Positions 2,406 through 53,251 of a stretch of 55,557 nt of DNA are shown piece after piece. The stretch's first letter is position 1. Every line of letters begins with the position of its first letter. The stretch covers positions 1 to 55,557 of the IMG/VR virus record IMGVR_UViG_3300044699_000015; one strand, 5' to 3'. The translations under genes and the position numbers were made by a program. This DNA is from a virus (lineage: Duplodnaviria; Caudoviricetes). The notes below the pieces were generated by a model. It was not told where the DNA came from. It searched no databases and was given only the letters and a program-made list of their open reading frames with translations.

Positions 2406-2963
2406 TCATGCGTGGGTTAGTGTGTTAAGTTGCGCCTCGGCTTCGGTTATAGTCGCCTTGGCAGCGGAAAGCTCTATTGTCTCAAACGCATCGAAATAAC
2501 GCTTCCCAAAGGCATCCTGAGCGCAATTACGCAGTATCCGGCTTTTAGTCTCCTTCGCCTCTTTCAGTTTCCGTTCCCAATAGATGATTAAAGAACCGGG
2601 GGAAGATGTTCCATTCCTTATTTTTGGTTCTACTGGTTTCAATTCGTGGCCCTGTTTAGAACCGTCCTGAGGGTCACAAGTAGAACCGCGTAGGTTCTGG
2701 ATAGAACCGTTCACGAAATACCGATTAGACCTTTTTAATTCGCGTTTTTCGACTTTGATGTAGCCAGCCGATTTCAATTCCTTAATCCATCCGAGGAGCG
2801 CGGCGCGTCCGCAATGCAGTTCCCGGCAGATTGTTTTGAGCGACGGCCAGCAGCACTCATTCTTGCCCGTCATATCACGGAATAAATGCCAAGCCCTAAA
2901 TGCGCCGTGGGATATGCGCTCGTCTCGGATGATTTTGGAATATAGCTTTGGGGAGATTTTCAA
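2406..2963 (-). CDS. winged-helix (HTH_36-like) replication-initiator-like protein, paralog 1
   Basis: RISHGAFRAWHLFRDMTGKNECCWPSLKTICREL...IKELKSAGYI...SNRYFV; start moved to TTG 2963 because similarity to 52445-53251 begins there and the upstream DNA is promoter plus structured leader. Confidence 0.75.
   Translation of the reverse strand: MKISPKLYSKIIRDERISHGAFRAWHLFRDMTGKNECCWPSLKTICRELHCGRAALLGWIKELKSAGYIKVEKRELKRSNRYFVNGSIQNLRGSTCDPQDGSKQGHELKPVEPKIRNGTSSPGSLIIYWERKLKEAKETKSRILRNCAQDAFGKRYFDAFETIELSAAKATITEAEAQLNTLTHA
2591..2709. repeat. iteron-like repeats inside initiator-like gene
   Basis: TAGAACCG at 2657, 2681, 2702; AAGAACCG at 2591; inverted GGTTCT at 2626 and 2693. Confidence 0.6.
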
Positions 2964-2969
2964 TCTGAT

Positions 2970-3102
2970 AACCAATTCCCACAAGACACACCCGCCCCGG
3001 CGACAACCGTCCAGCCTCGCGGCGAGAGATTCCGAAACGGGCGTGTATTGTGGCAACTGATTAGTGCAGAAGCCGCGTATGTAGCATTCGAGACGGTTGT
3101 CA
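2970..3102 (-). ncRNA. structured 5' leader (A-C-B-C'-A'-B' pseudoknot/switch), copy 1
   Basis: A 3102-3091 pairs A' 3012-3001 (12 bp); B 3062-3032 pairs B' 3000-2970 (29/31); C 3077-3072 pairs C' 3023-3018; G-U wobbles only on minus strand. Confidence 0.75.
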
Positions 3103-3116
3103 TATCGTCTAGTGGG

Positions 3117-3145
3117 TTTATCGCCCATGCCGCCGAAAGTGTCAA
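3117..3145 (-). promoter_or_regulatory. sigma70-like promoter
   Basis: TTGACA-17-GATAAA just upstream of the leader. Confidence 0.55.
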
Positions 3146-3158
3146 CGAGATTCATAGG

Positions 3159-14690: not shown

Positions 14691-16502
14691 TCAATCGTGG
14701 ACTAATAGCCGTGATTTGATGGCATTTTCAAATTCTTCCATCTCGGCTTGCATGAAGTTATCTGTTGAATCCTCGGATTTGTCAATAATTCCAATGCGGG
14801 TTATCTGGAAACCCAATCTTCTCGCCCCCTCGACCCCTATGGCAAATGTATCCATCAAATCTGGGCTTTTCTTGATTCGCTCCTTCATGTCCTCCTTTTT
14901 CTCTATCTCAATCTTGTTGCCAGCGACGATGGAATACATACGCATCTGGCCCTCTTGAGCGACTTCCTTGGGAAGATTGCGAACTTGTTCGGATTCGATG
15001 GCTTCTCGGGTTGAGAACCATAGTTCGGTCAAAAATTTTGAATAATGCTCCGAACACTTTTTCAATCTCTTTTCAATCATCCCGTATTCATTTTTAACTT
15101 CATGGAACAAATCGTGCCTTACAGGTCGGTCGGTCGGTTTTCCTCCTGCATTCACCGGAATTGGAGATTTATCTTTGAACACTTTTGAAAAAGCATGGCC
15201 GATTGTGCCGATTCCAAATGAGTCGTAAAAACAATTCTCCGATGGAATTCCCAACATATCCAATTTCTCTTTGGCGAATGCTGCAATTTGCTCCTCCGGT
15301 TCCATGCTCGAATTAAGTCTGATTGGAATTATTTCTGGCTCGCTACAATCAATCACGGTTTGTCCATAAGCGTCTTCACCGAACTGCAATTCCATACCCA
15401 CGCATCTATCGCCAGAGCCATAGGCTAAATCAATTGCGTAAAGTTTTGTGCGTTCAGTTCCTTTCCATACAACATCATCAAACGCCTTGTGTTTTTGGCA
15501 TAATGTCATCGTAATCACTCTCCAAGACACCATATTCTTAGAGGGCTTACCGATGCATTGAGAAAACCATTGCCACGAGTCTTTGCCGTGGGTGGAGGCG
15601 ACTGATTCGAGCAATTTATCCGATATTAGAAACGGATAACGGGTTCCCGGAAAATCTTTGTTGGGATTGTCTCTGCCATCAAAGGCGACGACGTGGGCAT
15701 TGTAAAACTTTGATTTCCATTCCTGAGTTTTTTCCGTGTCAACAAATGAATCCCATCCCGCGATAGGCTCTGCGGCTGTGCAAAGCGGTTCCGCGAGGTC
15801 GAGGGGATTGCCTCCCATGCAACCCTTGAAATTTTGATTCACCATCCAATTCGTATATGCGTCCAAAAAACTTGGCTGCATCAATGCGGCCTCATCTCCG
15901 TAGTGCGCCAACTTACCGTCTAATTTTCCGGGTGAGTTGGGAGGCTTAACACCCTGAAATTTTGACATGCCAACAAATCTTCCACCGCTGACGCAGGGCA
16001 CGCACACAATACCTTTATTTATAGTTCTTGCCATTTCATTGTCGTCATCAATATCGTCCGGTGTGATGGCCATTGCCGATTCTAGAACGTATCCGGGAAG
16101 CCAAGGGAACTTTGATTTAGCACGGTTGTATAATTCTTTAACCCGACCCCATACGCGCAATTCCAGTGACCGTTTATCGGTGGAGGAAATCAATGACAAA
16201 GAAGTGTGCGGGAAACAAAAAAAATCTATCAATGGCATGACTGCCATCAGAGTAGTTTTTCCAGAGCTTGCACTTCCAAGAAACACAGTTATTTGATTCT
16301 CAACCATTCTTCTGATTCCCAAAGTGAACCAACGATGCTGTTCGTCTTCTTGGAAAAGAAGTTTGTGAATCCTCAAATATGTATCTACGCGATTCGTTCC
16401 GAGTTTGGCCATTTGTGAATCTGATTGGCCCAACATCCACATTTCGATTTGAAGCTCATGCGTTCCCTCTGGCCATAGAAGCCCATATCTGTTAAGCGAC
16501 AT
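14691..16502 (-). CDS. terL: terminase large subunit
   Basis: Walker A GSASSGKT, Walker B GDEAA, GNP coupling motif, RNase H-like AIDLAYGSGDRCV, C-terminal KSPDLMD. Confidence 0.9.
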   Translation of the reverse strand: MSLNRYGLLWPEGTHELQIEMWMLGQSDSQMAKLGTNRVDTYLRIHKLLFQEDEQHRWFTLGIRRMVENQITVFLGSASSGKTTLMAVMPLIDFFCFPHTSLSLISSTDKRSLELRVWGRVKELYNRAKSKFPWLPGYVLESAMAITPDDIDDDNEMARTINKGIVCVPCVSGGRFVGMSKFQGVKPPNSPGKLDGKLAHYGDEAALMQPSFLDAYTNWMVNQNFKGCMGGNPLDLAEPLCTAAEPIAGWDSFVDTEKTQEWKSKFYNAHVVAFDGRDNPNKDFPGTRYPFLISDKLLESVASTHGKDSWQWFSQCIGKPSKNMVSWRVITMTLCQKHKAFDDVVWKGTERTKLYAIDLAYGSGDRCVGMELQFGEDAYGQTVIDCSEPEIIPIRLNSSMEPEEQIAAFAKEKLDMLGIPSENCFYDSFGIGTIGHAFSKVFKDKSPIPVNAGGKPTDRPVRHDLFHEVKNEYGMIEKRLKKCSEHYSKFLTELWFSTREAIESEQVRNLPKEVAQEGQMRMYSIVAGNKIEIEKKEDMKERIKKSPDLMDTFAIGVEGARRLGFQITRIGIIDKSEDSTDNFMQAEMEEFENAIKSRLLVHD

Positions 16503-17100
16503 TTTTCCACAGCTTTCTTTTCAAAATAAACCCAATCGCAGTTTTGGATACTCCGTATTCTCTGCCTAAAGTTTTCCAAGTCCACCCGCCTATTGCATAT
16601 TTCTGCCTTATTTCTCTCACCTGCCACTCGAACAGTCTTGAGTCTCCATTTCTCTCTCCTCTGGCGACACATTCAGGATGTAGTCTTGGGCCGCTCCTAT
16701 CTCCACGGGCTAATTTTTCTGGATTTGTTCTGGCATAATGGGCATCTCCCCTAATGGTAACTTTTCTTCCCTTTTTAATCATGTCCCTAATGTTATCAAG
16801 ACACGTTCCCAAGAATAAGTGAGAGGGATTTACGCATCCGGGGTTGTCGCAATGGTGACAAATAAAGTGACTCTCTGGAATAACTCCATTTTTTATCATC
16901 CAAACCAAACGGTTTGCGTTATAGGCTCCTTTTCTAACGTAAAACCTTCCATATCCAGAGCGTTTTCTGCCCAACCACTCCCAACAATCGCCATTTTTAT
17001 CAACAAGTGACCAAAATTTAGTCTCCTGTTCGGGAGTTAGTTTGACATATTGCCATTTGCTTGGGATGGTTTCAGAAGAACCGGACATCTTAGTTTTCAT
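16492..17100 (-). CDS. HNH (His-Cys box-like) homing endonuclease with C-terminal HTH
   Basis: CWEWLG...GYGRF...ICHHCDNPGCVNPSHLFLGT..DNIRDM..KGR. Confidence 0.9.
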   Translation of the reverse strand: MKTKMSGSSETIPSKWQYVKLTPEQETKFWSLVDKNGDCWEWLGRKRSGYGRFYVRKGAYNANRLVWMIKNGVIPESHFICHHCDNPGCVNPSHLFLGTCLDNIRDMIKKGRKVTIRGDAHYARTNPEKLARGDRSGPRLHPECVARGERNGDSRLFEWQVREIRQKYAIGGWTWKTLGREYGVSKTAIGFILKRKLWKNVA

Positions 17101-17184
17101 TCTTATGTTTGGTTTTAGCGGCTCGCGTGGCGTGATTACCATTCGAGCCGTGTTTATTTTGTCATTCCATCGTAAAATCACAAG

Positions 17185-18513: not shown

Positions 18514-19196
18514 TTACCACCTTCTAACTGGAGTGCAAAGGGATTTCTCGATTGACCATCCATTAACCAATCTATCTTGGAGCGTTCTGTAATTTATCCC
18601 AATCTCCAAAGACCATAGCATCATACTCTGGCGCTTTCCGTTAAATTCTATAATCCTATTATTTCTTCTATTGTTTTGCTGCTGTTCGGGGGTTGCCCAA
18701 ATACAATTTGAGGGTTCGTAATTTCCATTAACATTTTTACGCTCAATGCTATGTGTTTTGGATGGCCTAAGTCCCATATCGGATAAAAAACAATCGAATG
18801 AATTTAGCCAACGCTCGCAGATTGAAATTCCCCGACCTCCATAATCTTTGTAATCTGAACATTTTGTGTTTAAACATCGCTGCTTTAATCTGCTCCAAGT
18901 ATCATATTCTGGCATTATATTTCCCTTTTAGCATAACCATGAACATAGTTTCTTTTAGAGGTTGTTTCTGAACTTAAACAACCGCACGAGTTGGTTCGTT
19001 TTCCTATATCGTGCCCTGTGACAGTTGTTGTATTTCCACAATCGCATTTACAAAACCAAAGCGACCTCCAATGTTTACTTCCGGCGTGATATAAGACGGT
19101 TAATTTCCCATATCTCTTTCCTGTTCGGTCAATAAATCCATTGCCGCGCTTGACTGTTGTAAGGGAATTATGAGAGGGTTTGTTTAGGTCATTCAT
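18514..19196 (-). CDS. HNH-like endonuclease (two ORFs joined by TAATG or a 1-bp deletion near 18923)
   Basis: TGKRYGKLTV...WFCKCDCG...SCGC..HG, then YDTWSRLKQRC..YGGRGI.IC.RW...SIERKNVNGNYEPSNCIWAT. Confidence 0.8.
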
Positions 19197-19303
19197 ATTT
19201 ACGTATGGTGATTTAGCTTGGCGTTGGTTGTTCAATGCTTCCAACGTCAGGCGTCATTCTGCTTGACATGTAGGCATAAGCAAGCCGAAAGTCAGTCAAA
19301 TTT

Positions 19304-25736: not shown

Positions 25737-26633
25737 GTGGCCTTTGAAATCGCACCTTGGTTGAGAATCAACCCACTCGACTACGTTAATTCCGCTGCTG
25801 CCGGTGGAAGGCTTGGGTTGTCTCGTGCCGAGTTGGAATCAAGCGCATTGCAAGCCGGTGACAGAACAAATCTTGGTTATGCGCAGTTGGCAGGTGAAAA
25901 TGGCCGCGCATCTTCCGCATTGGCTGAACGTGCTTATGAGGCGAACTTGGAAAATCAGGCGCGACAAGCTGCCACCGAAGCAAATGCTTCCGAGGCCGCT
26001 GCCAAATTAAAAGAAGCAACAGCTAAATCCTCGTTGCCATCCATTCACACATTGGGAGACCAATTGTTAGCGGTGACGCCAGAGGGTTTTGTGACGCCTT
26101 TGTATAACAAACCAGAGGAACCCAAAATCATTGAAGGTTATCGTGGGGCAATTACGATGGTTGACCCTAAAAATGGGGCTGTAAAGGTGTTGCGTGATGC
26201 GATGCCTTACAACGTGCCTCAAAGGTTTGACACTGTTTCGGAAACGACCAAAGGAGTTCCCGAACATCCTTCCTATGACGTTACAACGCCACTCGTAAGT
26301 AAATGGTTTGGGCCTGATATTCAACCGTCATCGTTTTCGACAACCAACACTTCTGCTTTGGATGCTCTGCCTAAAGGCTCAACTATTGTGACCAATGATA
26401 TTCCTGCAACGCCGTCACGCACAACTAGCCGACGTGTTCCAGTGGCTACCGCTGCATTGGACGGCGTTGTTACAAGCCAAACGCCGGGAGTAAAAGATTT
26501 AGGGCCAGCATCGGGAACCGATAGCGTCACTATACCACCCGCGCAAGCCAACGAAATTACTCGCTTGACCAAAGACGGCAGGAAAGCAATTTTCGACGCA
26601 GATACGAAAGAGTTTTTGCGTTATGCCGACTAA
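25737..26633 (+). CDS. putative internal virion protein
   Basis: A-rich coiled-coil N-half; position. Confidence 0.5.
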   Translation: MAFEIAPWLRINPLDYVNSAAAGGRLGLSRAELESSALQAGDRTNLGYAQLAGENGRASSALAERAYEANLENQARQAATEANASEAAAKLKEATAKSSLPSIHTLGDQLLAVTPEGFVTPLYNKPEEPKIIEGYRGAITMVDPKNGAVKVLRDAMPYNVPQRFDTVSETTKGVPEHPSYDVTTPLVSKWFGPDIQPSSFSTTNTSALDALPKGSTIVTNDIPATPSRTTSRRVPVATAALDGVVTSQTPGVKDLGPASGTDSVTIPPAQANEITRLTKDGRKAIFDADTKEFLRYAD

Positions 26634-29600
26634 TCCAACTTGGGAAGAAACAACATCTGCACCGTCATGGGATGATACTGCTCCAATTTCTACAGAACAG
26701 GATTCACAACAATCCATAATTGATGCTTTAAATAATGGCGCAACCATTCGAGATGTTCCCGATAAAGCTGCACAAATAAAGCGTGACTTTGGCACGGAGC
26801 GATTGCGGCAAGTAATCGAAACTCCGGTTACAAATTACTTGCCAGAGGATGCCAGAAACGCATTGGATTTACCGGGACAAATGGCCGCTGTTGCTGCCAA
26901 GCATCCCGAAGATACCAGTTTTGGGGTAATGGCGGGAATGGCTGGTGGTGTCAAGAATCTAGCCAATGGTTTTACAAGCCCAATCGGATTAGCAACTTTG
27001 GGAATCGGTGCTGCTCCCAAGGCAACCCAAAAAGCGATTGCATTAGCATTCGCTGGTCAAATGGCTACCCAATTGCCAGACTTAGGAACAGAATTGGGGC
27101 AAGAATTTGGAAAACCCGCCGATAAAAGAGATACGGAGAAAATATCAAGGCTCCTCACTGAATTTGCTGGAACTGATTTGTTTGCTTCGCTGGCATTGAG
27201 ACACGGCTTAAAGGATTCTATTCCTGCACCAGAACCAAAACTAGAGCCTGCGCCTGATGTTTCAGGTAGAACACTCAAAATGCCGGAAGGTGCTAAACCT
27301 CCGGGTGAAATCCAAACAGTTGAGGACAATCTTGCTGATGTTTCCACAATTCCAAGCACGGGGCCAACCTTTGCGGGCATACCGGAAACTGCTATTCCGA
27401 AAGAGGCAAAGCCCGTGGTTCCAGAAACACCACCGGAAGCAGAAAAAGGTATCAGTGTCGTTGACGAAATCCGAAACAACGGAGCCAAGACGATTGCTGA
27501 TATTCAAAGACTTTATCCCCAAGCACAATTAACGCGAGAGGCAGCGCGAACTTTGCGTAATGCCGCATGGGGAACACCTGACAATCCTTTGCCAGCAGAA
27601 CAAACTCGACCGAAAGGAGAACCAAATGCCATTCCAGAGCGAAAGCCAGAGACGCTACCTGTGGAAATTCCACCCGGAAGTAGCACAGAAGTGGGCGGAC
27701 GAATATCCGCACCAGAAAAACCTGCCATATCACAAATCCCAAATCCCGAAACACAAACAGGGGCGGCGGGCATTCCGGAGCAAGTAGCGCCTCCGGTTGT
27801 AACCACCGATGTTACAGAGCCTTTAAATCCGGGTGGCTCACAAGCTGAATTGTCTCCTGATTTACAGGCGCAATCCAAGGCCAACAATAGCCGCGCAGCA
27901 TTTGAGGCGTTGGCGAAGGAAAAAGGCAGCCCATTGCCAACTCCCGCACCCGAAGGCAGTCCAACCGCTATGAAATATAGGTTGATTGACCAAGAGCGGG
28001 CTGCGCGTGGATTGGAGCCATTGACCAAGGGGGAATCTGTTTCCGACCAAGAGACGTTAAATAAGGCGATGGTAGCTATGGATAAAAACCCAAATGCTGC
28101 CGATGAATTGGTTAAGGAACTGAACGCGAAACCACGCACTATTTCCGACGTAGAAAACTTCATTCTGTTGCTCAAAAAAAGTGGAGTTACGTAATTCCTA
28201 TGAAGCATCGGCGCGTGAATCTGCCAAGGCTTTTGATGAAGGCAGAACGGGGGATGCGAAATTGGCATCATTGGAAGCCAACAAGTATTCGGATGCGTTG
28301 GAAAAGGTGGAGAAAGCATCTCGCGTGAGCGGTTCCGAACGTGGCCGCGCATTGCGTTCATTGCGCGTGATGATGAATGAGGACTTTTCCTTGGCATCAA
28401 TGGAAATGCAGCGACGTGCGGCCAAAGGTGGAGAGCCGTTGACCGAAGGAGAACGCTCTGAATTGGTCAAGATTGCCGATGACTATAAAAAGGCCAATGA
28501 GGATTTGCAGAAGCACATGGCGGAACGTATTGACCGTGCCTCCAAAGCTGCCGTTGATGAAGCCTTGGCACGAATAGCCAAAGAAACAAGACCAACTGTA
28601 GAGCCACATGTTCGCATTATCGCAGACCGTGTTAAGGGCTACTTCGACAAACGCGCAGAAGCGGCTTTGAAACGGTTATCAGGAGCAACATTCTCAACAC
28701 CGTTGCCTGACTTGATTGACCTCGGAGTATCCAAAATCATCAGTGGCGCAATCGAATTTGGTGAATGGTCTGCTAAAATGATTGCCGACTTGGGCGAGCG
28801 AGTTAAACCACACCTTAAAACCGTGTGGGATGCCTCCCACAAGGCGCTGGATGACCATATCGCGCAAGTTGCGAGTGGGAACACCCGAGAGAAGGTCAAA
28901 ACCGCTGTAAAGTCCACTGGCGATAAAATAGCCAAGGCCCGCGAGACGATTAAAACGCGAGTGGCAGCGAAGGAAACCGAAAAGCTATCACCACAGATTC
29001 AAAAAATGGCCCGTGCGTTCATCGAATCAGGCATTACCGATAGAGAAAAGTTGATAGATGCCGTTCATAATGAATTACAACAGATTTTGCCTGACATTAC
29101 CCGCCGTGAAACCATGGACGCCATTTCGGGTTATGGAGATTTTAAGCAACTGAGCAAGGATGAAATCAGCGTCAAATTGCGTGGCATGAAAGGCGAAATG
29201 CAGCAAATCGCCAAGCTGGAAGATATGGCCAAAGGCGTGCCGCCTAGTAAAACCGGCATTGAACGACGGGAGCCGACTGCGGAGGAAAGAAAACTCATTA
29301 AGGCAGTCAACGAGGCCAAGATTCAATTTCAGGTTCCGATTACCGACCCTGCAACACAGTTAAAATCTGCTTTGGACACCCGCAAGGCTTTGCTCAAAGG
29401 GCAGATTGAGGACTTGGAGAACCGTATTAAAACGGGCGACTACTCCAAGAAGCCAAAACGCGAACTTGCTTTGGATAGAACCGCTATGGAATTGGAGGCC
29501 CAAAAAGGAAGGCTGCGAAAGAAGTTCTTGGAGGGTCAACGAAAATCGCAACTAGCCGCTAGAACTGGAAGTGAAAAAACCTTCGACTTTATCGGTAACG

Positions 29601-30913
29601 CCAGGCGTTTCTCGGTGCTTTCCGGTGCTAATGTGCTGGCTAAACTCGCCGCTTATTCCGCTACCAAATTGCCAATAATGGGAATAACCGAGGCAATCGG
29701 AGGGGCTTTGTCCAAGGCCAGAGGAATACGCGATATTGCCGAAAAAGCCCCAAGCGAAAGCGGTGCGAGTTACGATGCTTATGCCAAGGCGATTGCGAAA
29801 GGACTTACGCAAGGTTTCGTTGATGCCTATAAAGTCGCCAAAACCGGCCAATCTGATTTAAAGGCTGCTTTCAGTGACCGTCCTGATACGGGGCGGGAAT
29901 GGTATAACTTTTTCCAAACAGTTCACGAGGTTATCAAATCTCCATTGCGCCGTGCTGCCTTTGAATTGTCATTGCAAAAGCGCATGGCTCACGCGGTCAA
30001 GAATGGCGTGGATATTTCCGACCCTCTGGTTCAAGTCGCTTTGTCGAAGGATGCCTATTTGGATTCAGACCGTGCGCTATTGTTGGAAAGCAACAAACTC
30101 GCATCCGGTATTCGTGGATTATTGAAACAGTTGGAAACTCCAAATAAAAAGAGTGGCGAAATTCCGATTGTGGGAAAGGCCGCTGCCACCTTGGGGCGTG
30201 TCGAGTTTCCCATCCTCACAGTTCCGTTCAATTACATGAAACAAACGCTTACTTCCGCGTTTGGATTGGCTACCGGAAGTCTCAAAGCACGAGCCGCATT
30301 GAAAAGAGGAGTCGAAAACCTTTCACCAGAGGAAGCTGACAATATCATGCGGCATTTGAAATACGGTTCAATCGGAGGCGCGATGTTGCTTTACGGATTT
30401 TACGATGGTTACAAAAACGGGAGCAATGGCGTATTCGGTGGTTATTACCAGCCGGGAGAAAAGCGAAAAGACAATCAGGCTGGTGTTGGCGGTCTTAAAA
30501 TAGGGGATACTAAGATTAGCGGTCTATTGCTCCACAACCCTGTTTTAGCCGTTGGGCAGCTTGGGCATACGATTGGCGCGATTGCAGCACAAAAGCACTC
30601 CAAGGCCAATCCAGAGCAGCGTGGCGTGGCAATAGGTTCAATCTCTGGAATGATGGGGTTGCTAAATGAATCTCCACTTGGCCGACAATTTGAACTTGTG
30701 AGTGATTTAAGCGACCCCAAGAGTGCAGAATGGGCCTTGGGAGAACATGCTAAATCACTTGCAGTTCCACAATTGGTTCAAGAAGCCGCACAAGCCACTG
30801 ATAAGGACGCTGCCGGAAACGTGATTAAACGCGCTCCGGTGACGGTTGGGCAGCATGTAAAGACTGGCATTCCGATTCTGCGGCAGACGGTTCCGAAAAA
30901 GAAACAACCATAA
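26623..30913 (+). CDS. large internal virion/ejection-type protein (~1430 aa; frameshift at A7 28174-28180)
   Basis: Removing one A fuses 26623-28194 with 28181-30913 (..LLKKVELRN..); P/E-rich linker then long helical region. Confidence 0.65.
27626..27787 (+). CDS. 53-aa basic phage protein nested in +1 frame of the large virion gene
   Basis: AAAGGAGA SD 5 nt before ATG; MPFQSESQRRYLWKFHPEVAQKWADEYP resembles recurrent small phage proteins beginning MPFKS.AQRR. Confidence 0.7.
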   Translation: MPFQSESQRRYLWKFHPEVAQKWADEYPHQKNLPYHKSQIPKHKQGRRAFRSK

Positions 30914-37576: not shown

Positions 37577-38031
37577 AGGTTTTCTAATGGTATTTTCACA
37601 ATCGCACACTGACCGTCGTTGATTCCCACAGAGACCAAAATATTTCCGTTGCTCTCAATCGCGCCACCGGGGAAAGCCACATTCTTTTTGTATTGCAGAC
37701 AATTATTCCTGTCCATCGGGTCTAGTGTGTCCAACTCGCTGCCAGCAAAGAGTGGCTCCTTGCACATTTCAAGAATTTCAAATGGTGGCTCTTTTTTCAT
37801 TACTAACCACCCGACGTAGTATCGATGGCGAGGATTTGAAAATTCCCCATCTCGCCTTGAGTGGAAAATACGCAACAGATTTCCCTTCCATGGAATTACA
37901 ACCCCACCTCTTATTGCTCCAAATTCCCAAGTGGGAGCCTTGGTTTTTATCTCTCTTACCATGTTATCGCCCTCAAGTTCCAAAACAACTTGATTGTCTC
38001 CAACAATTCCATAAACACAGTAGAGTTTCAT
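37573..38031 (-). CDS. C-terminal half of GH130/GH43-like beta-propeller (split gene)
   Basis: KLYCVY...IRGG...FHS...YYVG...PPF...VAFPGG...VSVGIND. Confidence 0.7.
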   Translation of the reverse strand: MKLYCVYGIVGDNQVVLELEGDNMVREIKTKAPTWEFGAIRGGVVIPWKGNLLRIFHSRRDGEFSNPRHRYYVGWLVMKKEPPFEILEMCKEPLFAGSELDTLDPMDRNNCLQYKKNVAFPGGAIESNGNILVSVGINDGQCAIVKIPLENL

Positions 38032-38492
38032 GGTATGATGTTCAATCTTCCAAATTCACCGTGGTATTTTAAAGATGCTGCATTGTAAGCCAATGTGGCT
38101 TCCAAGGCAGTTTCAAATCCTCCAAGGAAAATAGCTCTTTTGTCCGACATTATTCTTGCTTCGTATCTTCCATTTTTAACCCTAACCCCCTTAATTCCCA
38201 GCCTATTATTCACGGGAACTTTTCGGTTTCTCATGTTTTGGCTACGAGAACACAATCGGATGTTATCCCTTCGATTGTCCAATGTGTTTCCGTCCTTATG
38301 GTCAACCCATTGATTGCTTTTGGCATTTAAGATTTGACGGTGCATGAGAATTGTTTTTCCATTTTCTACACGGGATGCGTAATAGGTTTTAGTTTCTCCC
38401 CAATGAGCAGACCACTTCCATTGAGATAAAAGGTCATAATCTTGGTCATCAACTATTGTGACCATGCCGTGAGTTAATGGGATTGTTTTCAT
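38028..38492 (-). CDS. HNH endonuclease with AP2 domain
   Basis: MKTIPLTHG..TIVDD.DY; MHRQI; VDHKDGNTLDNRRDNIR; YNAASLKYHGEFGRLN. Confidence 0.9.
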   Translation of the reverse strand: MKTIPLTHGMVTIVDDQDYDLLSQWKWSAHWGETKTYYASRVENGKTILMHRQILNAKSNQWVDHKDGNTLDNRRDNIRLCSRSQNMRNRKVPVNNRLGIKGVRVKNGRYEARIMSDKRAIFLGGFETALEATLAYNAASLKYHGEFGRLNIIP

Positions 38493-40357
38493 ACAGAGAA
38501 GAAGCACCAGTTTTTTTCGGATGATGTGAAGTCGTTCCCGCCATACTTGGGCTGTTTCACATTGATTAAAGTCCAGCGGCCTCGAATGTTTGTCAGTTGC
38601 CCATATTTCACCACGCAAACGTATTCGTTCGGAAGGCGTGACTCGGTGTAAGAGCAATACAAATCGTTGCCATGATGGAATAATCGCCCGTCCTCTGTGC
38701 TATACATCAAATCGCCTTCCAGCCATTGATTATTCAGCACATTGAATTGTTCATCCAATTCTGCAATGGCGAGTTGGGTTGTGAGATTGCCGGTGCGGTG
38801 GCTGCGATACATCATTAGGAGCCTGCCATCGTGACGGATAATGGAGGGGTTATAACCGTATGCGTAAACAGCCTTGGCATTGATAATCGAACAATCCACT
38901 TGGTCAACGACTGACGGTTTCGCCGTGGACAATCCAATCTTCTTGGCAAACTCCACCAACAATTCTTCGTTGTATTTGCGATAGGGCGATGGCTTGTATT
39001 CAACCGGCGCAGAATCTTCGCGTTTGCACACTCCCCATTCAGCATCCTTACCCATGAACGCGGCTAGACCCTGACACCAGTTTTGTTCGCTGCCCATCAC
39101 AAAGTCCGGTATCAACTCCACATTGTTATCCCACCATTCGCGGGTGAACATAAAAGCATCAATCTGCGAACGCTTTTCACCGTTGATATAGCGATGGCTA
39201 TACGCTGGCATGGGGCGTTGTTCGAGTTCTGAACCCGTTGGGAATATATCAGGCCGAGTCAGCATAATTACATCCTTGGCATCTGCCTTGAGCGTAGCCA
39301 ACCTCACAGCATCTTTCAGGAATGGATAACGATAGATTTCATCCGGCCATTTCACCTTGGTATCCCTGCCGAACGAACCTATCTCCATTGGCGACGATAC
39401 CCACGCGCCTAAGTCATAGCTCTTTTGCCATTCTTTCTTTGCCCGCTGATGCCTCTCCTTATTGGCCTCGGTGATTTCGTATTGCGACCAGACGTGGACA
39501 ACTTTAGGGCTTGAAATACCCTTGGCGAAAAAGGAGCCAGCTTTTCCAATGTTCCCGATTGCCCCCAAAATTTCCACGGCGCGATTGGGAAAGTCACCAT
39601 AACGAACATGCGCGATGTATTGCGGCCTATTCGGGCTTCCGTGCCAAAGTGAGGGTTGGTCTTGTGTGAGCGCAACAACCGGAAGCGCAGGACAAGCGTA
39701 GGCGAGTTGCAAGGTGGCCGTATCGCAGGAGACAAGACATTTTGTGTTGGGATGCTCATAGATGCCTAACAAATCGTAAAAACGGTCTGCGCGGATTTTG
39801 GATATGTCCACGATTTCATACCAGCGTCCAAACCGGAGCCGCAACATTTCCATCAGGACATTGCCCCACGGAAACGGGCTGGTAACGCCTCCAAGGTTGC
39901 ACAGAATCCACCCTTTCTTACCGGATGGCATTTTCTTTAACAGTTCTGATTCACGAACGGGTTGGCGATTGTCGAACACCAAAGGATATTGATTCTTCCA
40001 TTCAGCCAACCGGCCTAACAATCGCCATTGCTCTTTAGCGAATGATTCACAGTATTGCGCGTTTATGTCGATGCCGGATTTAACGTAGGCTTCGCGCAGG
40101 ACCGTTTCTCTGTCACCACACACTTGAGCGATTTTGTAGCCCTCATCAATCGTCTTGGCGAAATCCACAGCACGCGATAGTTCCATGAAGTTACCGTTGA
40201 ATACGATTGGGTCTAGATAACTTACGCCGTCCAGCAAGGAGGCATAGTCATGGGAGACGATTAGCTTCCAGCGATTACCACGCTCATTGTCGAAGCGGGC
40301 GAGAGGGAGAAGGTTGATTACGTCGCCCAATTTTCCGAGTGCTAAAATCGTGGGCAT
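38489..40357 (-). CDS. multidomain GT9-like glycosyltransferase plus N-terminal half of glycosidase-like propeller
   Basis: GKLGDVINLLP; LVSCDTATLQLA; YNPSI; EDGRLF; ends EKNWCFFSV. Confidence 0.7.
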   Translation of the reverse strand: MPTILALGKLGDVINLLPLARFDNERGNRWKLIVSHDYASLLDGVSYLDPIVFNGNFMELSRAVDFAKTIDEGYKIAQVCGDRETVLREAYVKSGIDINAQYCESFAKEQWRLLGRLAEWKNQYPLVFDNRQPVRESELLKKMPSGKKGWILCNLGGVTSPFPWGNVLMEMLRLRFGRWYEIVDISKIRADRFYDLLGIYEHPNTKCLVSCDTATLQLAYACPALPVVALTQDQPSLWHGSPNRPQYIAHVRYGDFPNRAVEILGAIGNIGKAGSFFAKGISSPKVVHVWSQYEITEANKERHQRAKKEWQKSYDLGAWVSSPMEIGSFGRDTKVKWPDEIYRYPFLKDAVRLATLKADAKDVIMLTRPDIFPTGSELEQRPMPAYSHRYINGEKRSQIDAFMFTREWWDNNVELIPDFVMGSEQNWCQGLAAFMGKDAEWGVCKREDSAPVEYKPSPYRKYNEELLVEFAKKIGLSTAKPSVVDQVDCSIINAKAVYAYGYNPSIIRHDGRLLMMYRSHRTGNLTTQLAIAELDEQFNVLNNQWLEGDLMYSTEDGRLFHHGNDLYCSYTESRLPNEYVCVVKYGQLTNIRGRWTLINVKQPKYGGNDFTSSEKNWCFFSV

Positions 40358-52166: not shown

Positions 52167-52277
52167 GCCTGAAATTATCACCCCGCCGTTGCAAAGTCCA
52201 TCCGATGTAATACGGATGCCATTCCGAACACTTTCACCTTGCCATTTTTAATCGGCGGGAGGACGATGCGAGAATGC

Positions 52278-52306
52278 TTGACAGGAAATGGTCATTTGAC
52301 CAATAT
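52278..52306 (+). promoter_or_regulatory. sigma70-like promoter
   Basis: TTGACA-17-CAATAT. Confidence 0.6.
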
Positions 52307-52314
52307 CGGAGCAA

Positions 52315-52438
52315 TGTATACGTTGATTCAGTTCGCGGCAAGCGAGTCTCAATCGCCCCCGTTCGTGTCTGTAGGAGTCCGAAGCCTTGCCGCCCAAAGA
52401 CGTATACAGCCTACAGACATGAATCGGGGTTATTGGGA
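52315..52438 (+). ncRNA. structured 5' leader (A-C-B-C'-A'-B'), copy 3
   Basis: A 52315-52324/A' 52399-52408; C 52335-52342/C' 52386-52393; B 52347-52375/B' 52410-52438 (27/29). Confidence 0.75.
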
Positions 52439-52444
52439 ATCGCC

Positions 52445-53251
52445 TTGCAATTAGACCCCAAGATTTATTCCCAAATCATTCAAGATAAGCGTATCTCTCA
52501 CGGCGCTTTCAGGGTGTGGCATCTACTTCGAGACATGACCGGCGACAACACTCATTGCTGGCCATCCATGCGGACGATATGCAAGAAGATTAGTTGCAGC
52601 AAATCTTCGGTTTCGGGGTGGATTAAAGAGCTAATCGAAGCGCAGTATGTAACGGTGAAGCGCGGCTCTCGACATTCGCCAAACAGGTATTTCGTGAGCG
52701 GTATCGTTTCAAACCTCAGTGTCTCGGAAGGATACCACAGAGGTATCGTTTCAGGGACGGAATTGAACTCAAAGAATATTAACTCAAATAACCAACTAGC
52801 TTCTAGTATGGAAAATCCACAAGACAAAAACGTTCAGGACTTCCACCACTGTTACAGGCAATCAACGGGATTAGATGTCTCTCTTAATTTTTACCGTGAA
52901 AGCATGTGGCGCGAATGGTTCCGGTATGGCGAAACTCATTGCGGTGGGTTTACTCAGGACGACTTGCGGGCCGTGGTTGAGTTGCGAAAATTCCGGGCCA
53001 AGAACAAAATGCAGGGATACCACACTTTAGCGTTTAATGCGCTTATAGGCTCGCCAGATGTCATGGAGGAGGATTTGTCAGAAGCCCGCGCAAAGTCTCG
53101 CCAGCGCAAGCCTAGCGCCAGAGACGCGATTTTAAGAGCCACAGGCCGACCCACAGAGCCAACCCGTGCTGCTGTGACTGCGGGCAATGTGATTGAGGGG
53201 GAACGCGCTTTCCAAGCGTTCAGGCAATGGCGTGCAGAGAATAACCTGTGA
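52445..53251 (+). CDS. winged-helix (HTH_36-like) replication-initiator-like protein, paralog 2
   Basis: RISHGAFRVWHLLRDMTGDNTHCWPSMRTIC...GWIKEL...NRYFV; TTG start 6 nt after leader. Confidence 0.75.
   Translation: MQLDPKIYSQIIQDKRISHGAFRVWHLLRDMTGDNTHCWPSMRTICKKISCSKSSVSGWIKELIEAQYVTVKRGSRHSPNRYFVSGIVSNLSVSEGYHRGIVSGTELNSKNINSNNQLASSMENPQDKNVQDFHHCYRQSTGLDVSLNFYRESMWREWFRYGETHCGGFTQDDLRAVVELRKFRAKNKMQGYHTLAFNALIGSPDVMEEDLSEARAKSRQRKPSARDAILRATGRPTEPTRAAVTAGNVIEGERAFQAFRQWRAENNL
52700..52753. repeat. iteron-like repeats
   Basis: GGTATCGTTTCA at 52700 and 52742; inverted GATACC at 52731. Confidence 0.55.

What the first reader, a model, noticed from the sequence alone, without database searches (positions are those of the whole stretch)
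27611..27787. Conserved small phage gene overprinted inside the large virion gene
Within the P/E-rich linker of the 26623-30913 gene, the +1 frame carries an AAAGGAGA SD, an ATG at 27626 and a 53-aa ORF (MPFQSESQRRYLWKFHPEVAQKWADEYPHQKNLP...). It resembles small basic proteins starting MPFKS-x-AQRR that I recall as stand-alone phage genes. The outer frame (NAIPERKPETLPVEIPPG...) is low-information there, which suggests the inner gene constrains the sequence. Gene callers would normally miss this.
Basis: partly seen in the sequence, partly recalled or inferred. Interest (0 to 1): 0.72.

Follow-up and report, generated by a model that had tools for sequence, protein, structure and literature searches.

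The report
Hidden small gene inside phage gene
A 53-codon gene for a small basic phage protein sits, in a shifted reading frame, inside a very large phage gene; the same arrangement recurs in many unrelated phages, and gene finders miss it.

Summary
At 27626-27787 an ATG-started 53-codon ORF, with GGAG 6 nt upstream, lies in the +1 frame of a P/E-rich linker of a large gene.

It is not a chance ORF. It matches a profile built only from database proteins at E 1.3e-20. That family of small basic phage proteins has 4472 clusters and no Pfam entry.

Homologous +1-frame nested copies occur in 9 of 36 sources (window plus 35 relatives), down to 27% outer-protein identity. 7 of the 9 have GGAG/GAGG upstream, against a 7.9% background. 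None of the 5 nested copies looked up is in a 15-billion-protein collection.

The family also occurs stand-alone, often just after the portal gene, and as the extreme N-terminus of long variable proteins. Elsewhere, 53 of 80 viral loci and 17 of 45 MAG loci are nested, always in +1.

In 37 unique marine sequences the outer wobble position is nearly frozen in the overlap (diversity 0.040, against 0.39-0.43 in the flanks). The inner wobble varies, so the inner frame is under purifying selection.

Correction: this is not de novo overprinting, because the inner gene belongs to an old family. The outer gene in this record is split by an A7 run at 28174-28180. Function is inferred only.

The parts
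27613..27620 (+). Shine-Dalgarno-like AAAGGAGA (core GGAG 27616-27619), 6 nt before the inner ATG
   Evidence: sequence. GGAG/GAGG lies at -16..-5 in 7 of 9 nested copies of this clade, against a 7.9% background in the same genes; binomial 6e-7, though the lineages are not fully independent.
27626..27787 (+). Embedded gene: 53 codons plus TAG, in the +1 frame of the outer ORF. It is a member of the 'MPFKS' small basic phage protein family.
   Evidence: Profile match E 1.3e-20. It is the only copy in this genome, which CheckV rates 100% complete. The exact sequence is absent from the 15-billion-protein collection.
27626..27715 (+). Conserved N-terminal module, residues 1-30. P2, S5 and Q8 are invariant. 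Predicted two-helix hairpin.
   Evidence: Alignment A3. AlphaFold2 gives helices 6-15 and 17-26, with block pLDDT 86, 94, 86.
27716..27784 (+). Variable basic tail, residues 31-53, predicted disordered
   Evidence: pLDDT 71-55. Whole-protein net charge is +8 (12 K+R, 4 D+E); the median for short family members is +9.
27560..27625 (+). In-frame upstream extension from ATG 27560 (75-aa version); probably not used
   Evidence: There is no SD before 27560. Family proteins start at MPF. In L022, L011 and L025 a stop lies 5 codons before the ATG.
26623..28194 (+). Outer ORF, first part (523 aa). It has a hydrophobic G/A-rich segment, then the P/E-rich linker that hosts the inner gene. Its last ~75 residues are conserved.
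   Evidence: Residues 445-519 are 65% identical to L004/L013 and 61% to L022.
28174..28180 (+). A7 run where the outer gene changes frame. It may be an error, a real frameshift, or a slippage site.
   Evidence: In L004 both halves lie in one frame. L022 and L013 read through with no homopolymer. No read or contig covered the site.
28181..30913 (+). Outer ORF, second part (910 aa), the conserved C-terminal region of the large protein
   Evidence: 25-60% identity to 35 loci. There is a weak hit to phrog_10089 (DarB-like), E 0.0059.

Best explanation
27626-27787 is a real, functional protein-coding gene embedded in the +1 frame of the disordered P/E-rich linker of a large (about 1430-aa), polyvalent-protein-like late gene. 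It is read from the same mRNA by independent initiation at its own SD and ATG. Its product is a 53-aa protein of the widespread 'MPFKS' family: a roughly 30-residue N-terminal two-helix module followed by a basic, disordered tail.

Shown here: family membership; recurrence of the same +1 embedding in many lineages; purifying selection on the inner frame while the outer frame stays open.

Inferred from the start-site anatomy (SD, ATG, nearby upstream stops), with no direct evidence of translation: independent initiation.

Inferred, about 35% likely: the module is a head- or virion-incorporation or docking module that works only at a free N-terminus, and the basic tail binds DNA. On this reading the small protein is a minor internal head protein co-packaged or co-delivered with the DNA, and the long fused forms carry cargo into the virion. 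Embedding it in a late structural gene ties its synthesis to that gene.

The confidence given (0.8) is for the core claim, a real and separately translated embedded gene of this family. It does not cover the functional guess.
For: (1) Homology.
- A profile of 120 database proteins hits the ORF at E 1.3e-20.
- 303 of 319 candidate small proteins (17-97 aa searched) match at E<=0.01, some 62-79% identical to the window's.
- 4472 50%-identity clusters match at E<=1e-3, and 1302 at E<=1e-10.

(2) Recurrence in the same outer gene.
- Nested +1 copies with ATG occur in 9 of 36 sources (window plus 35 loci): window, L022, L011, L013, L025, L040, L028, L023, L018. Outer identity goes down to 27%.
- Every profile hit with E<0.1 was on the + strand, in the +1 frame, inside the large ORF. 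There were none in the other frames or genes.

(3) Start signals.
- GGAG/GAGG lies upstream in 7 of 9, against a 7.9% background.
- A stop lies 5 codons upstream of the ATG in 3 relatives. This argues for initiation, not frameshifting.

(4) Selection in the window clade.
- The inner protein is better conserved than the outer peptide over the same bases in the closest pairs: scores 133 vs 73, 118 vs 54, 157 vs 78.
- Differences by outer codon position 1/2/3 are 64/49/43 in the overlap, against 1233/967/1888 outside it (p 2.7e-5).

(5) Selection in 37 unique sequences of a marine group with the same arrangement.
- Diversity at outer positions 1/2/3 is 0.309/0.207/0.427 upstream, 0.172/0.033/0.040 in the overlap, and 0.202/0.110/0.393 downstream.
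- 32 variants are silent in the inner frame only, 9 in the outer frame only, and 13 in neither.

(6) The open outer frame is not a by-product of family composition. That frame is open in only 1 of 15 stand-alone and 0 of 9 fused copies.

(7) It is the sole copy in two genomes rated 100% complete, G000 and G001.

(8) Evidence for the inferred function.
- The module starts at residue 1-2 in 141 of the best 150 representatives, 91 of which are 100-1016 aa long. The C-terminal parts are unrelated.
- Stand-alone copies sit between portal and scaffold/capsid genes (L047, L001).
- Nested copies sit in the gene right after the portal (L057) or in huge ORFs. One of these matches the C-terminus of phrog_10089 (DarB-like) at 8.7e-60.
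- Outer-gene relatives carry swapped-in domains, as polyvalent proteins do (PMC5512222, passages read).
- Streptomyces phage FlowerPower gp48 has a long AKK-rich tail.
Against: - There is no direct evidence of expression. No RNA run holds the region, and there are no Ribo-seq or MS data.
- No close relatives (>60% outer identity) of this phage were found. The selection test in the window's own clade therefore rests on saturated, divergent pairs aligned through the inner protein, which favours the inner frame. The clean test comes from a different phage group.
- 27 of the 36 sources show no nested copy, though some are duplicates or lack the 5' part. These include L010 and L012, close relatives of L011. 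One 93%-complete genome has no copy at all. The gene is therefore dispensable or replaceable.
- 2 of 9 copies lack a visible SD, as does the large marine cluster (0 of 41 loci).
- The window copy itself does not reach significance against phrog_1375 (E 0.14, 75-aa version).
- The function is inferred from context alone. Contexts vary: FlowerPower gp48 lies between a 'peptidase' and a holin, and the P-RSP2 copy is in the early region.
- No structural or sequence match to any characterised protein was found.
Confidence: 0.8

Rival explanations
1. The nested ORF is an unexpressed relic. A small gene was once swallowed when neighbouring genes fused or a cassette recombined into the linker. It now persists only because the outer frame constrains the sequence.
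For: The cassette is present or absent among close relatives and missing from one 93%-complete genome. There is no expression evidence. Open +1 stretches are common in this gene.
Against: ATG, ORF integrity and mostly an SD are kept in 9 lineages whose inner proteins have diverged to about 30-50% identity. The variation pattern is that of a coding inner frame, and the outer wobble is frozen, which is the opposite of what this reading predicts. The nested copy is the only copy in two complete genomes.
Confidence: 0.06
2. The inner frame is read by ribosomal frameshifting, not by separate initiation. Either a +1 shift from the outer frame gives a truncated outer protein with a basic C-terminus, or ribosomes starting at the inner ATG shift -1 back into the outer frame. 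The second route would give an MPFKS-tagged C-terminal isoform that mimics the naturally fused forms.
For: In-frame fusions of the module to long proteins are common. The record already shows one frame change in this gene, at the A7 run. Several nested copies lack an SD.
Against: The family's invariant start (M-P at residue 1) coincides with an ATG in all 9 copies. A stop lies 5 codons upstream in three of them, leaving almost no room for a +1 entry. SD enrichment points to initiation. I found no canonical slippery heptamer by eye in the window's ORF; this was not tested systematically. The inner stop codon is conserved as an ORF end in all copies.
Confidence: 0.06
3. The gene is real and separately translated, but its product is not a virion or head component. 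It is a small nucleic-acid-binding regulator or host-takeover/anti-defence factor, and its N-terminal module is an interaction or oligomerisation element. This rival concerns the function only and is compatible with the core claim.
For: It is a small, very basic protein with a disordered tail. It lies in the early region in cyanophage P-RSP2 and next to the holin in Streptomyces phages. Polyvalent-type outer proteins are themselves conflict effectors (PMC5512222). The gene is accessory, with presence or absence among relatives.
Against: Most resolved contexts are in the head or structural module, directly after the portal gene or inside late giant genes. The strict N-terminal position on unrelated long cargo-like proteins resembles targeting modules.
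Confidence: 0.3
4. The outer frame is not translated across this segment. On this reading the 'large gene' is really separate genes, with the small gene standing alone between them.
For: In this record the large gene is already split, at 28174-28194. The outer peptide in the overlap is low in information.
Against: The outer frame is open across the small gene within ORFs of 1539-2251 codons in the 8 other nested loci of the clade (for five; for L028, L023 and L018). The same holds in 53 of 53 nested viral loci and 17 of 17 nested MAG loci. The same frame is full of stops in 14 of 15 stand-alone and 9 of 9 fused copies. The flanks show coding-type variation in the outer frame on both sides.
Confidence: 0.03

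Closest known systems
Lambda Rz/Rz1 two-component spanin genes (embedded architecture)
   Same: A small gene lies wholly embedded in the +1 frame of a longer phage gene and is translated from its own start. The family also exists in other architectures (for spanins: embedded, overlapped, separated). Gene callers usually miss the embedded partner. Source: PMC6139136, passages read.
   Different: The product here has no signal peptide, lipobox or Cys, so it is not an o-spanin. The host gene is a giant linker-rich late gene or a portal-adjacent gene, not an i-spanin. The same small family is embedded in outer genes that share nothing beyond the overlap. The family also occurs as an in-frame N-terminal module.
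MuF / SPP1 gp7 head-protein domain
   Same: Its gene lies next to the portal gene. It occurs alone or fused to many different effector domains believed to be delivered with the DNA (PMC5512222, passages read). The MPFKS module shows the same pattern: portal-adjacent, alone or N-terminal to variable long proteins.
   Different: No sequence or fold relation was found. The module here is only about 30 residues and strictly N-terminal. Head association has not been shown.
T4 capsid-targeting sequence and small basic internal proteins (recalled from the literature, not checked in any call)
   Same: A short N-terminal element directs proteins into the prohead, and small basic proteins are co-packaged and injected with the DNA. 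This is the working analogy for the function.
   Different: There is no sequence similarity. Proteolytic removal of the module is not indicated. The comparison is purely an analogy.
Classical overprinted (de novo) viral overlapping genes
   Same: Two proteins come from one DNA stretch, and the overlapped partner region is rich in disorder-promoting residues (PMC8227390 and PMC6195259, abstracts seen in the listing; Rancurel et al. as quoted in PMC6139136).
   Different: Here the inner gene is not new. It has thousands of relatives outside any overlap. The low-information frame is the outer linker, so the 'young' frame is most likely the outer one at this spot.
phrog_1375 / phrog_5320 (unknown function) and Pfam DUF3008
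   Same: The nested copy of L007/L040 matches phrog_1375 at E 2.6e-8, and P0007 matches at 5.8e-7. The ESM Atlas lists a DUF3008 cluster as the nearest named neighbour, at score 0.82, which is a lead only.
   Different: The window's copy gives E 0.14 (75-aa form) or nothing (53-aa form) against phrog_1375. No family member tested hits DUF3008 or any other Pfam family at E<=1. None of these families has a known function.

Membership tests
'MPFKS' small basic phage protein / N-terminal module family (unnamed; no Pfam entry) | Significant match to a profile of family members not derived from the window | tested here: met
   E 1.3e-20 (69.4 bits) against a profile of 120 database proteins. 62-79% identity to P0009, P0010, P0011 and P0041.
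'MPFKS' small basic phage protein / N-terminal module family (unnamed; no Pfam entry) | Motif M-P-x-x-S-x-x-Q at the very N-terminus (P2, S5, Q8 invariant) | tested here: met
   The window protein starts MPFQSESQ. P2, S5 and Q8 are invariant in the 52-sequence alignment A3. The module starts at residue 1-2 in 141 of 150 best representatives.
'MPFKS' small basic phage protein / N-terminal module family (unnamed; no Pfam entry) | About 30-residue two-helix module followed by a basic, disordered tail in the short forms | tested here: met
   AlphaFold2 gives helices 6-15 and 17-26 with pLDDT 86-94, and a tail at pLDDT 55-71. Net charge is +8, against a family median of +9. This is a prediction only.
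phrog_1375 | Significant hmmscan match | tested here: inconclusive
   Window 53-aa form: no hit. Window 75-aa form: E 0.14. Relatives: L007 copy 2.6e-8, P0034 7.8e-6. The L004 copy and P0016 give no hit.
Pfam DUF3008 (PF11450) | Match to the Pfam model | tested here: not met
   No Pfam family at E<=1 for the window ORF or for 6 other nested copies. None at E<=0.01 for 3 database members. The only link is an Atlas feature score of 0.82.
Embedded out-of-frame phage genes (architecture class of Rz1 in Rz) | Small ORF with its own start, wholly inside a longer same-strand ORF in another frame, conserved across relatives | tested here: met
   +1 frame, ATG, inside the 523-aa ORF (single ORFs of 1539-2251 codons in the other nested relatives). 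79 nested cases are counted across, all in +1.
o-spanin (Rz1-like) | Lipoprotein signal with lipobox Cys; partner i-spanin as host gene; lysis cassette context | tested here: not met
   The 53-aa product has no Cys and no hydrophobic leader. The host gene is a large late gene of about 1430 aa.
De novo overprinted gene | The inner frame has no homologues outside the overlap (young, lineage-restricted) | tested here: not met
   Thousands of homologues exist, including stand-alone and in-frame fused forms.
Programmed frameshift product | Slippery site plus a stimulator; no independent start needed | tested here: inconclusive
   A conserved ATG, SD enrichment and nearby upstream stops argue against it. 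No systematic search for slippery sites or structures was run.
Polyvalent / DarB-like virion-delivered giant proteins (outer gene) | Very large multidomain protein in the late/packaging context, with variable effector-type domains | tested here: inconclusive
   The window protein has only a weak hit, phrog_10089 at E 0.0059. Homologous proteins in relatives carry Glucosaminidase, His_Phos_1, DNA_pol3_beta_3 and E3_binding domains, plus a sub-threshold ART-PolyVal hit. Neighbours of the window gene have no family hits. Virion presence cannot be tested here.

The most novel reading that the evidence does not exclude
The SD-plus-small-ORF unit may be a self-contained dual-coding cassette that moves between phage genes. 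It would recombine, frame-preserving, into disordered linkers of late structural or polyvalent genes that are otherwise unrelated. It is always placed so that the host gene reads it in the -1 register as a harmless acidic/Pro-rich linker. On this reading it hitch-hikes on genes the phage cannot lose, and its synthesis is coupled to theirs. Interconversion between stand-alone, embedded and N-terminally fused states would then be a regular evolutionary cycle for this family, and many 'linkers' of giant phage proteins would hide genes.
Probability: 0.2. Interest if true: 0.85.

Novelty: new variant of a known kind. Interest (0 to 1): 0.72.

Why it matters
Embedded out-of-frame genes are accepted in phages for very few families, with Rz1 the textbook case.

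Here a pre-existing, very widespread but unnamed small-protein family (4472 clusters at 50% identity) is repeatedly embedded, always in the +1 frame. The host genes share nothing beyond the overlap. A clear selection signature shows that the hidden frame is the more constrained one.

Standard annotation discards these genes: 5 of 5 nested copies looked up were absent from a 15-billion-protein collection. The family's true distribution, and that of similar 'linker-hidden' genes in giant phage proteins, is therefore underestimated.

The case also gives a concrete system in which to ask three questions: how an existing gene becomes dual-coded, how internal initiation inside a translated ORF is tuned, and what this N-terminal module does. 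It may be a general tag for loading proteins into phage heads.

Tried and rejected
- Nucleotide search of the 4.3-kb gene against 50,697 phage records: no match.
- tblastn of the 53-aa peptide there gave only two useful weak hits (H1 E 1e-2, H2 E 0.4). The Klebsiella rows (E 7) were treated as noise and not followed.
- The metagenome scan with the outer N-terminal protein found one marginal relative (L045, residues 1-28). It was not used, so no close relatives were available for a clean dN/dS test in the window's own clade.
- Pfam gave nothing for the inner protein or its nested relatives. PDB by sequence gave 0 hits at E<=1. PDB by fold gave nothing meaningful. BFVD returned only uncharacterised small phage proteins. 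The ESM Atlas returned only 'hypothetical' viral clusters.
- Sequencing runs: no RNA holder is listed. Two DNA runs of one soil study were laid as contigs. They cover only parts of the stretch, mainly 27594-27755, and do not cover the A7 site. Neither expression nor the frameshift could be checked.
- Complex prediction of a P22-like portal (L047, 629 aa, 44-row alignment) with its adjacent stand-alone small protein (51 aa, 48-row alignment) gave no verdict (score 0.00). This is not evidence either way. The portal of the window's own phage could not be identified, so its own pair was not tried.
- BLASTP between the long fused proteins and the window-clade large proteins gave no similarity at 1e-3. 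The idea that fused forms are in-frame versions of the same outer gene was dropped.
- Promoter and terminator scan of 26400-28400: nothing upstream of the inner ORF. Rfam: 0 families in the whole window. tRNAs: 0.
- The tree of 42 small proteins (about 45 aligned residues; FastTree, supports not printed) shows nested, stand-alone and fused forms interleaved. It is too weak to count transitions.
- Literature: full-text searches for the peptide words and phrog_1375 found no description of this family. The same is true for embedded or out-of-frame phage genes and for the Streptomyces phages. Subscription journals are not covered.
- Earlier findings of this scan: none.
Full report
WHAT IS THERE

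The window is a 55,557-bp virus record that CheckV rates 100% complete. It is a divergent tailed phage. A large terminase is recognisable at 14691-16502 on the minus strand, along with several HNH endonucleases and replication genes. Most late genes have no family hit.

At the reported place the sequence reads AAAGGAGA (27613-27620), then six bases, then ATG (27626). A 53-codon ORF follows, ending in TAG at 27785-27787. Its product is MPFQSESQRRYLWKFHPEVAQKWADEYPHQKNLPYHKSQIPKHKQGRRAFRSK.

This ORF lies in the +1 frame of the ORF 26623-28194. Over the same bases the outer ORF encodes a segment that is 71% P/E/G/S/T/A/Q, part of a 250-residue linker of similar make-up.

It is 26623-28194 plus 28181-30913, in different frames, meeting at an A7 run at 28174-28180. 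In L004/L013 both halves lie in one frame. All 35 related loci have one ORF of 1073-3304 codons, several of them cut by a locus end. L022 and L013 read straight through the junction with no homopolymer. The window therefore has one base too many at that run. I could not tell whether this is an assembly error, a real frameshift or a slippage site, because no contig covered it.

IS IT MORE THAN CHANCE?

An open +1 frame is not special here. Open stretches of 84-112 codons occur in both alternative frames of the same gene. The homology is what matters.

tblastn against isolate phages gave weak hits to a 39-aa annotated gene of phage 023Pt_psg01 and to an unannotated ORF of cyanophage P-RSP2. Both start MPF.SEKQ.

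A profile of these plus two nested copies retrieved 303 small proteins at E<=0.01 out of 319 candidates (17-97 aa searched; those listed are 31-92 aa). None has a Pfam domain. Several are 62-79% identical to the window's protein, among them P0011, MPFQSEAQRRFLWAKHPEIAQRWAKEYPHQKNLPKHKQGKRFHKKQHQRI.

A profile built only from 120 of those database proteins scores the window ORF at E 1.3e-20, and nothing else in the window reaches E 1. Against 1.84 billion cluster representatives, a 52-sequence profile finds 4472 proteins at E<=1e-3 and 1302 at E<=1e-10. The ORF is therefore a bona fide member of a very large, unnamed family. The nearest labelled family is phrog_1375 (unknown function). Relatives match it (2.6e-8 for the L007 copy), but the window's copy does not match it significantly. 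Pfam DUF3008 is only a feature-space lead.

CONSERVATION OF THE NESTING

I fetched 35 loci that encode relatives of the large protein, at 25-60% identity. I scanned all six frames of them and of the window with family profiles.

Nested copies were found in 9 of 36 sources: window, L022, L011, L013 (= L004), L025, L040 (= L007), L028, L023 and L018. L018 was recognised through its 31/46 identity to L023. All nine start with ATG, lie in the +1 frame, and sit inside the single large ORF.

Every profile hit below E 0.1 was of this kind. There were none on the other strand, in other frames or in other genes.

GGAG or GAGG lies 5-16 nt upstream in 7 of 9, against 7.9% of positions in the same genes (binomial 6e-7; L022 and L011 share their upstream sequence, so the lineages are not fully independent). 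In L022, L011 and L025 the inner frame has a stop just 5 codons before the ATG. This leaves essentially no room for entry by frameshifting and points to separate initiation.

The cassette is not universal. L010 and L012, close relatives of L011 (61-76% identity in the C-terminal part), have unrelated sequence in its place. The 93%-complete genome of L005/L015 has no copy anywhere. In the two genomes rated 100% complete (G000, the window, and G001, the genome of L004), the nested copy is the only copy.

None of the five nested ORFs I looked up exists in the 15-billion-protein collection.

SELECTION

In the window's clade the inner proteins are better conserved than the outer peptides over the same bases in the closest pairs. 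Local alignment scores are 133 vs 73 for window-L022, 118 vs 54 for L013-L025, and 157 vs 78 for L023-L018.

Nucleotide differences by outer codon position 1/2/3 are 64/49/43 in the overlap (133 codons, three independent pairs). In the rest of the same genes they are 1233/967/1888 (p 2.7e-5). The outer wobble position thus loses its freedom exactly where the inner gene lies.

These pairs are divergent, and the overlap was aligned through the inner protein, which favours that frame. No closer relatives exist in the collections I could search.

A cleaner test came from another phage group found through the small family (see below). It has 37 unique sequences. Nucleotide diversity at outer positions 1/2/3 is:
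- 0.309/0.207/0.427 upstream of the overlap;
- 0.172/0.033/0.040 inside it;
- 0.202/0.110/0.393 downstream.

Inside the overlap the variable position is the inner frame's third position. Of 54 variants there, 32 are silent in the inner frame only, 9 in the outer frame only, and 13 in neither.

The outer frame is nevertheless kept open. That register is interrupted by stops in 14 of 15 stand-alone and 9 of 9 fused family genes. It is open in every nested one. Both frames are therefore maintained, and the inner one is the more constrained.

THE FAMILY AND ITS THREE ARCHITECTURES

- 53 as nested: another same-strand frame open for 150 or more codons across the whole small ORF;
- 18 as stand-alone;
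- 9 as in-frame N-termini of proteins of 319-926 aa.

All 53 nested ones have the small ORF in +1 and an outer ATG 38-1093 codons upstream. They fall into 13 of 30 clusters at 75% identity, and 38 of the 53 belong to one marine cluster.

Of 45 loci in genome and MAG contigs binned to many phyla, 17 are nested (all +1), 24 stand-alone and 4 fused. Some of these may duplicate IMG/VR phages.

Outer genes of the different groups resemble one another only across the overlap. They include a roughly 400-aa protein encoded directly after terminase and portal (L057) and ORFs of 1058-2799 codons. One of these matches the C-terminus of phrog_10089 (DarB-like) at 8.7e-60.

Stand-alone copies lie between the portal and the scaffold/major head genes in L047, and in the head module of phage 023Pt_psg01. 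In Streptomyces phage FlowerPower the homologue gp48 lies between a 'peptidase' and the holin and has a long AKK-rich tail.

In long proteins the module is at the extreme N-terminus. It starts at residue 1-2 in 141 of the best 150 representatives, of which 59 are under 100 aa, 42 are 100-299 aa and 49 are 300 aa or more. In the earlier set, 115 of 128 domain hits start at residue 5 or earlier. The parts that follow the module are unrelated to one another.

AlphaFold2 with a 52-row alignment predicts two short helices (6-15, 17-26; pLDDT 86-94) and a disordered basic tail. No solved or characterised structure matches.

A soil metagenome holds many contigs that match only 27594-27755, with unlike flanks. 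This fits a conserved small gene sitting in varied surroundings.

THE OUTER GENE

The window's protein gives only weak hits (phrog_10089 at E 0.0059). Its homologues in relatives carry different inserted domains in the variable central part: Glucosaminidase in L040, His_Phos_1 in L103, DNA_pol3_beta_3 in L023, E3_binding in L041, and a sub-threshold ART-PolyVal hit in L031.

This is the pattern described for phage 'polyvalent proteins', which are thought to be packaged in the head and delivered with the DNA (PMC5512222, passages read). The virion role of the window's gene is thus an inference and has not been shown.

HOW IT MOST LIKELY WORKS

Shown: a family member is encoded in the +1 frame. 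The arrangement recurs in many lineages and in outer genes that share nothing beyond the overlap. The inner frame is under purifying selection while the outer stays open.

Inferred with good support: ribosomes initiate at the internal SD and ATG on the late mRNA and make a free 53-aa protein.

Inferred, roughly 35% likely: the N-terminal hairpin is a docking or head-incorporation module that needs a free N-terminus, and the basic tail binds DNA. The small forms would then be minor internal proteins and the fused forms would carry cargo. This is analogous to MuF/gp7 and to the T4 capsid-targeting sequence (recalled). The main functional rival, about 30%, is a small nucleic-acid-binding regulator or anti-defence factor.

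The single complex prediction I ran (portal with the adjacent small protein of L047) gave no verdict.

COMPARISON AND NOVELTY

The closest known architecture is lambda Rz1 embedded in the +1 frame of Rz. Spanins also have separated and overlapped variants, and annotation neglects the embedded partner in the same way (PMC6139136, passages read).

The present case differs in four respects:
- the product is not a lipoprotein;
- the outer genes are giant linker-rich or portal-adjacent genes;
- the outer genes share nothing beyond the overlap;
- a third, in-frame fused architecture exists.

It is not classical overprinting, because the inner gene is the old one. The low-information outer linker is probably the derived reading.

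My full-text searches found no description of this family or arrangement. Subscription journals were not searched.

I rate it a new variant of a known kind, with interest 0.72. It is well supported by sequence evidence, clearly overlooked by annotation, and widespread. It still lacks expression data and a demonstrated function.

Noticed in passing
window 28174-28194: The large gene changes frame at an A7 run. The first ORF stops at 28192-28194 and the second is open from 28154 (first start codon GTG at 28181). All 35 related loci have one ORF, and L022 and L013 read through with no homopolymer. It may be an assembly error, a true frameshift or a slippage site.
   Followed up: partly
window 27257-27532 (+): A second +1-frame ORF (91 aa, ATG start, very basic) lies just upstream in the same linker. 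It was not searched against any family library and drew no family-profile hit. It is probably a composition effect of the P/E-rich outer frame.
   Followed up: partly
window 18514-18915 and 18915-19244 (-): Two adjacent ORFs match consecutive parts of the same HNH endonuclease profile: phrog_374 positions 172-266 and 271-388. This looks like a split or frameshifted homing-endonuclease gene. Further HNH genes lie at 16492-17181 and 38028-38657.
   Followed up: no
window 2406-3155 (-) and 52274-53251 (+): Two replication-initiator/DnaD-like paralogues (both phrog_270) lie near opposite ends of the record, on opposite strands.
   Followed up: no
L023:2924-9418, L103:2303-7885, L040:313-5622, L041:2-9913: Homologues of the large protein carry different inserted domains in their central region: the DNA polymerase III beta C-terminal domain, histidine phosphatase, glucosaminidase and the E3-binding domain. 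This module shuffling is typical of polyvalent proteins.
   Followed up: partly
L012:5922-6548, L035:5964-6590, L029:5853-6539 and others, L039:6010-6684: Alternative-frame ORFs of 209-229 codons lie inside the large ORF of several relatives. They were not examined and could be composition effects or further hidden genes.
   Followed up: no
window 27594-27755 (laid contigs of run X1): Many soil-metagenome contigs at 80-95% identity match only the inner ORF and continue with unlike sequence on both sides. The small gene is thus conserved at the nucleotide level in varied genomic surroundings.
   Followed up: partly
L126:4001-4219 (Streptomyces phage FlowerPower gene 48): This cultured-phage member of the family is annotated as hypothetical. 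It is 72 aa long with an AKK-rich, histone-like tail and lies between a 76-aa 'peptidase' and the holin. It offers a possible experimental handle.
   Followed up: partly
L023:3921-4079 and L018:6123-6269: These two nested copies form a distinct Cys-containing subtype, MPATSRKQQRFMAMCSHNPGKAKGKCP... and MPPAYSQKQANFMRMCANSPGKAKKKCP.... They are 31/46 identical to each other but only marginally match the family profile.
   Followed up: partly
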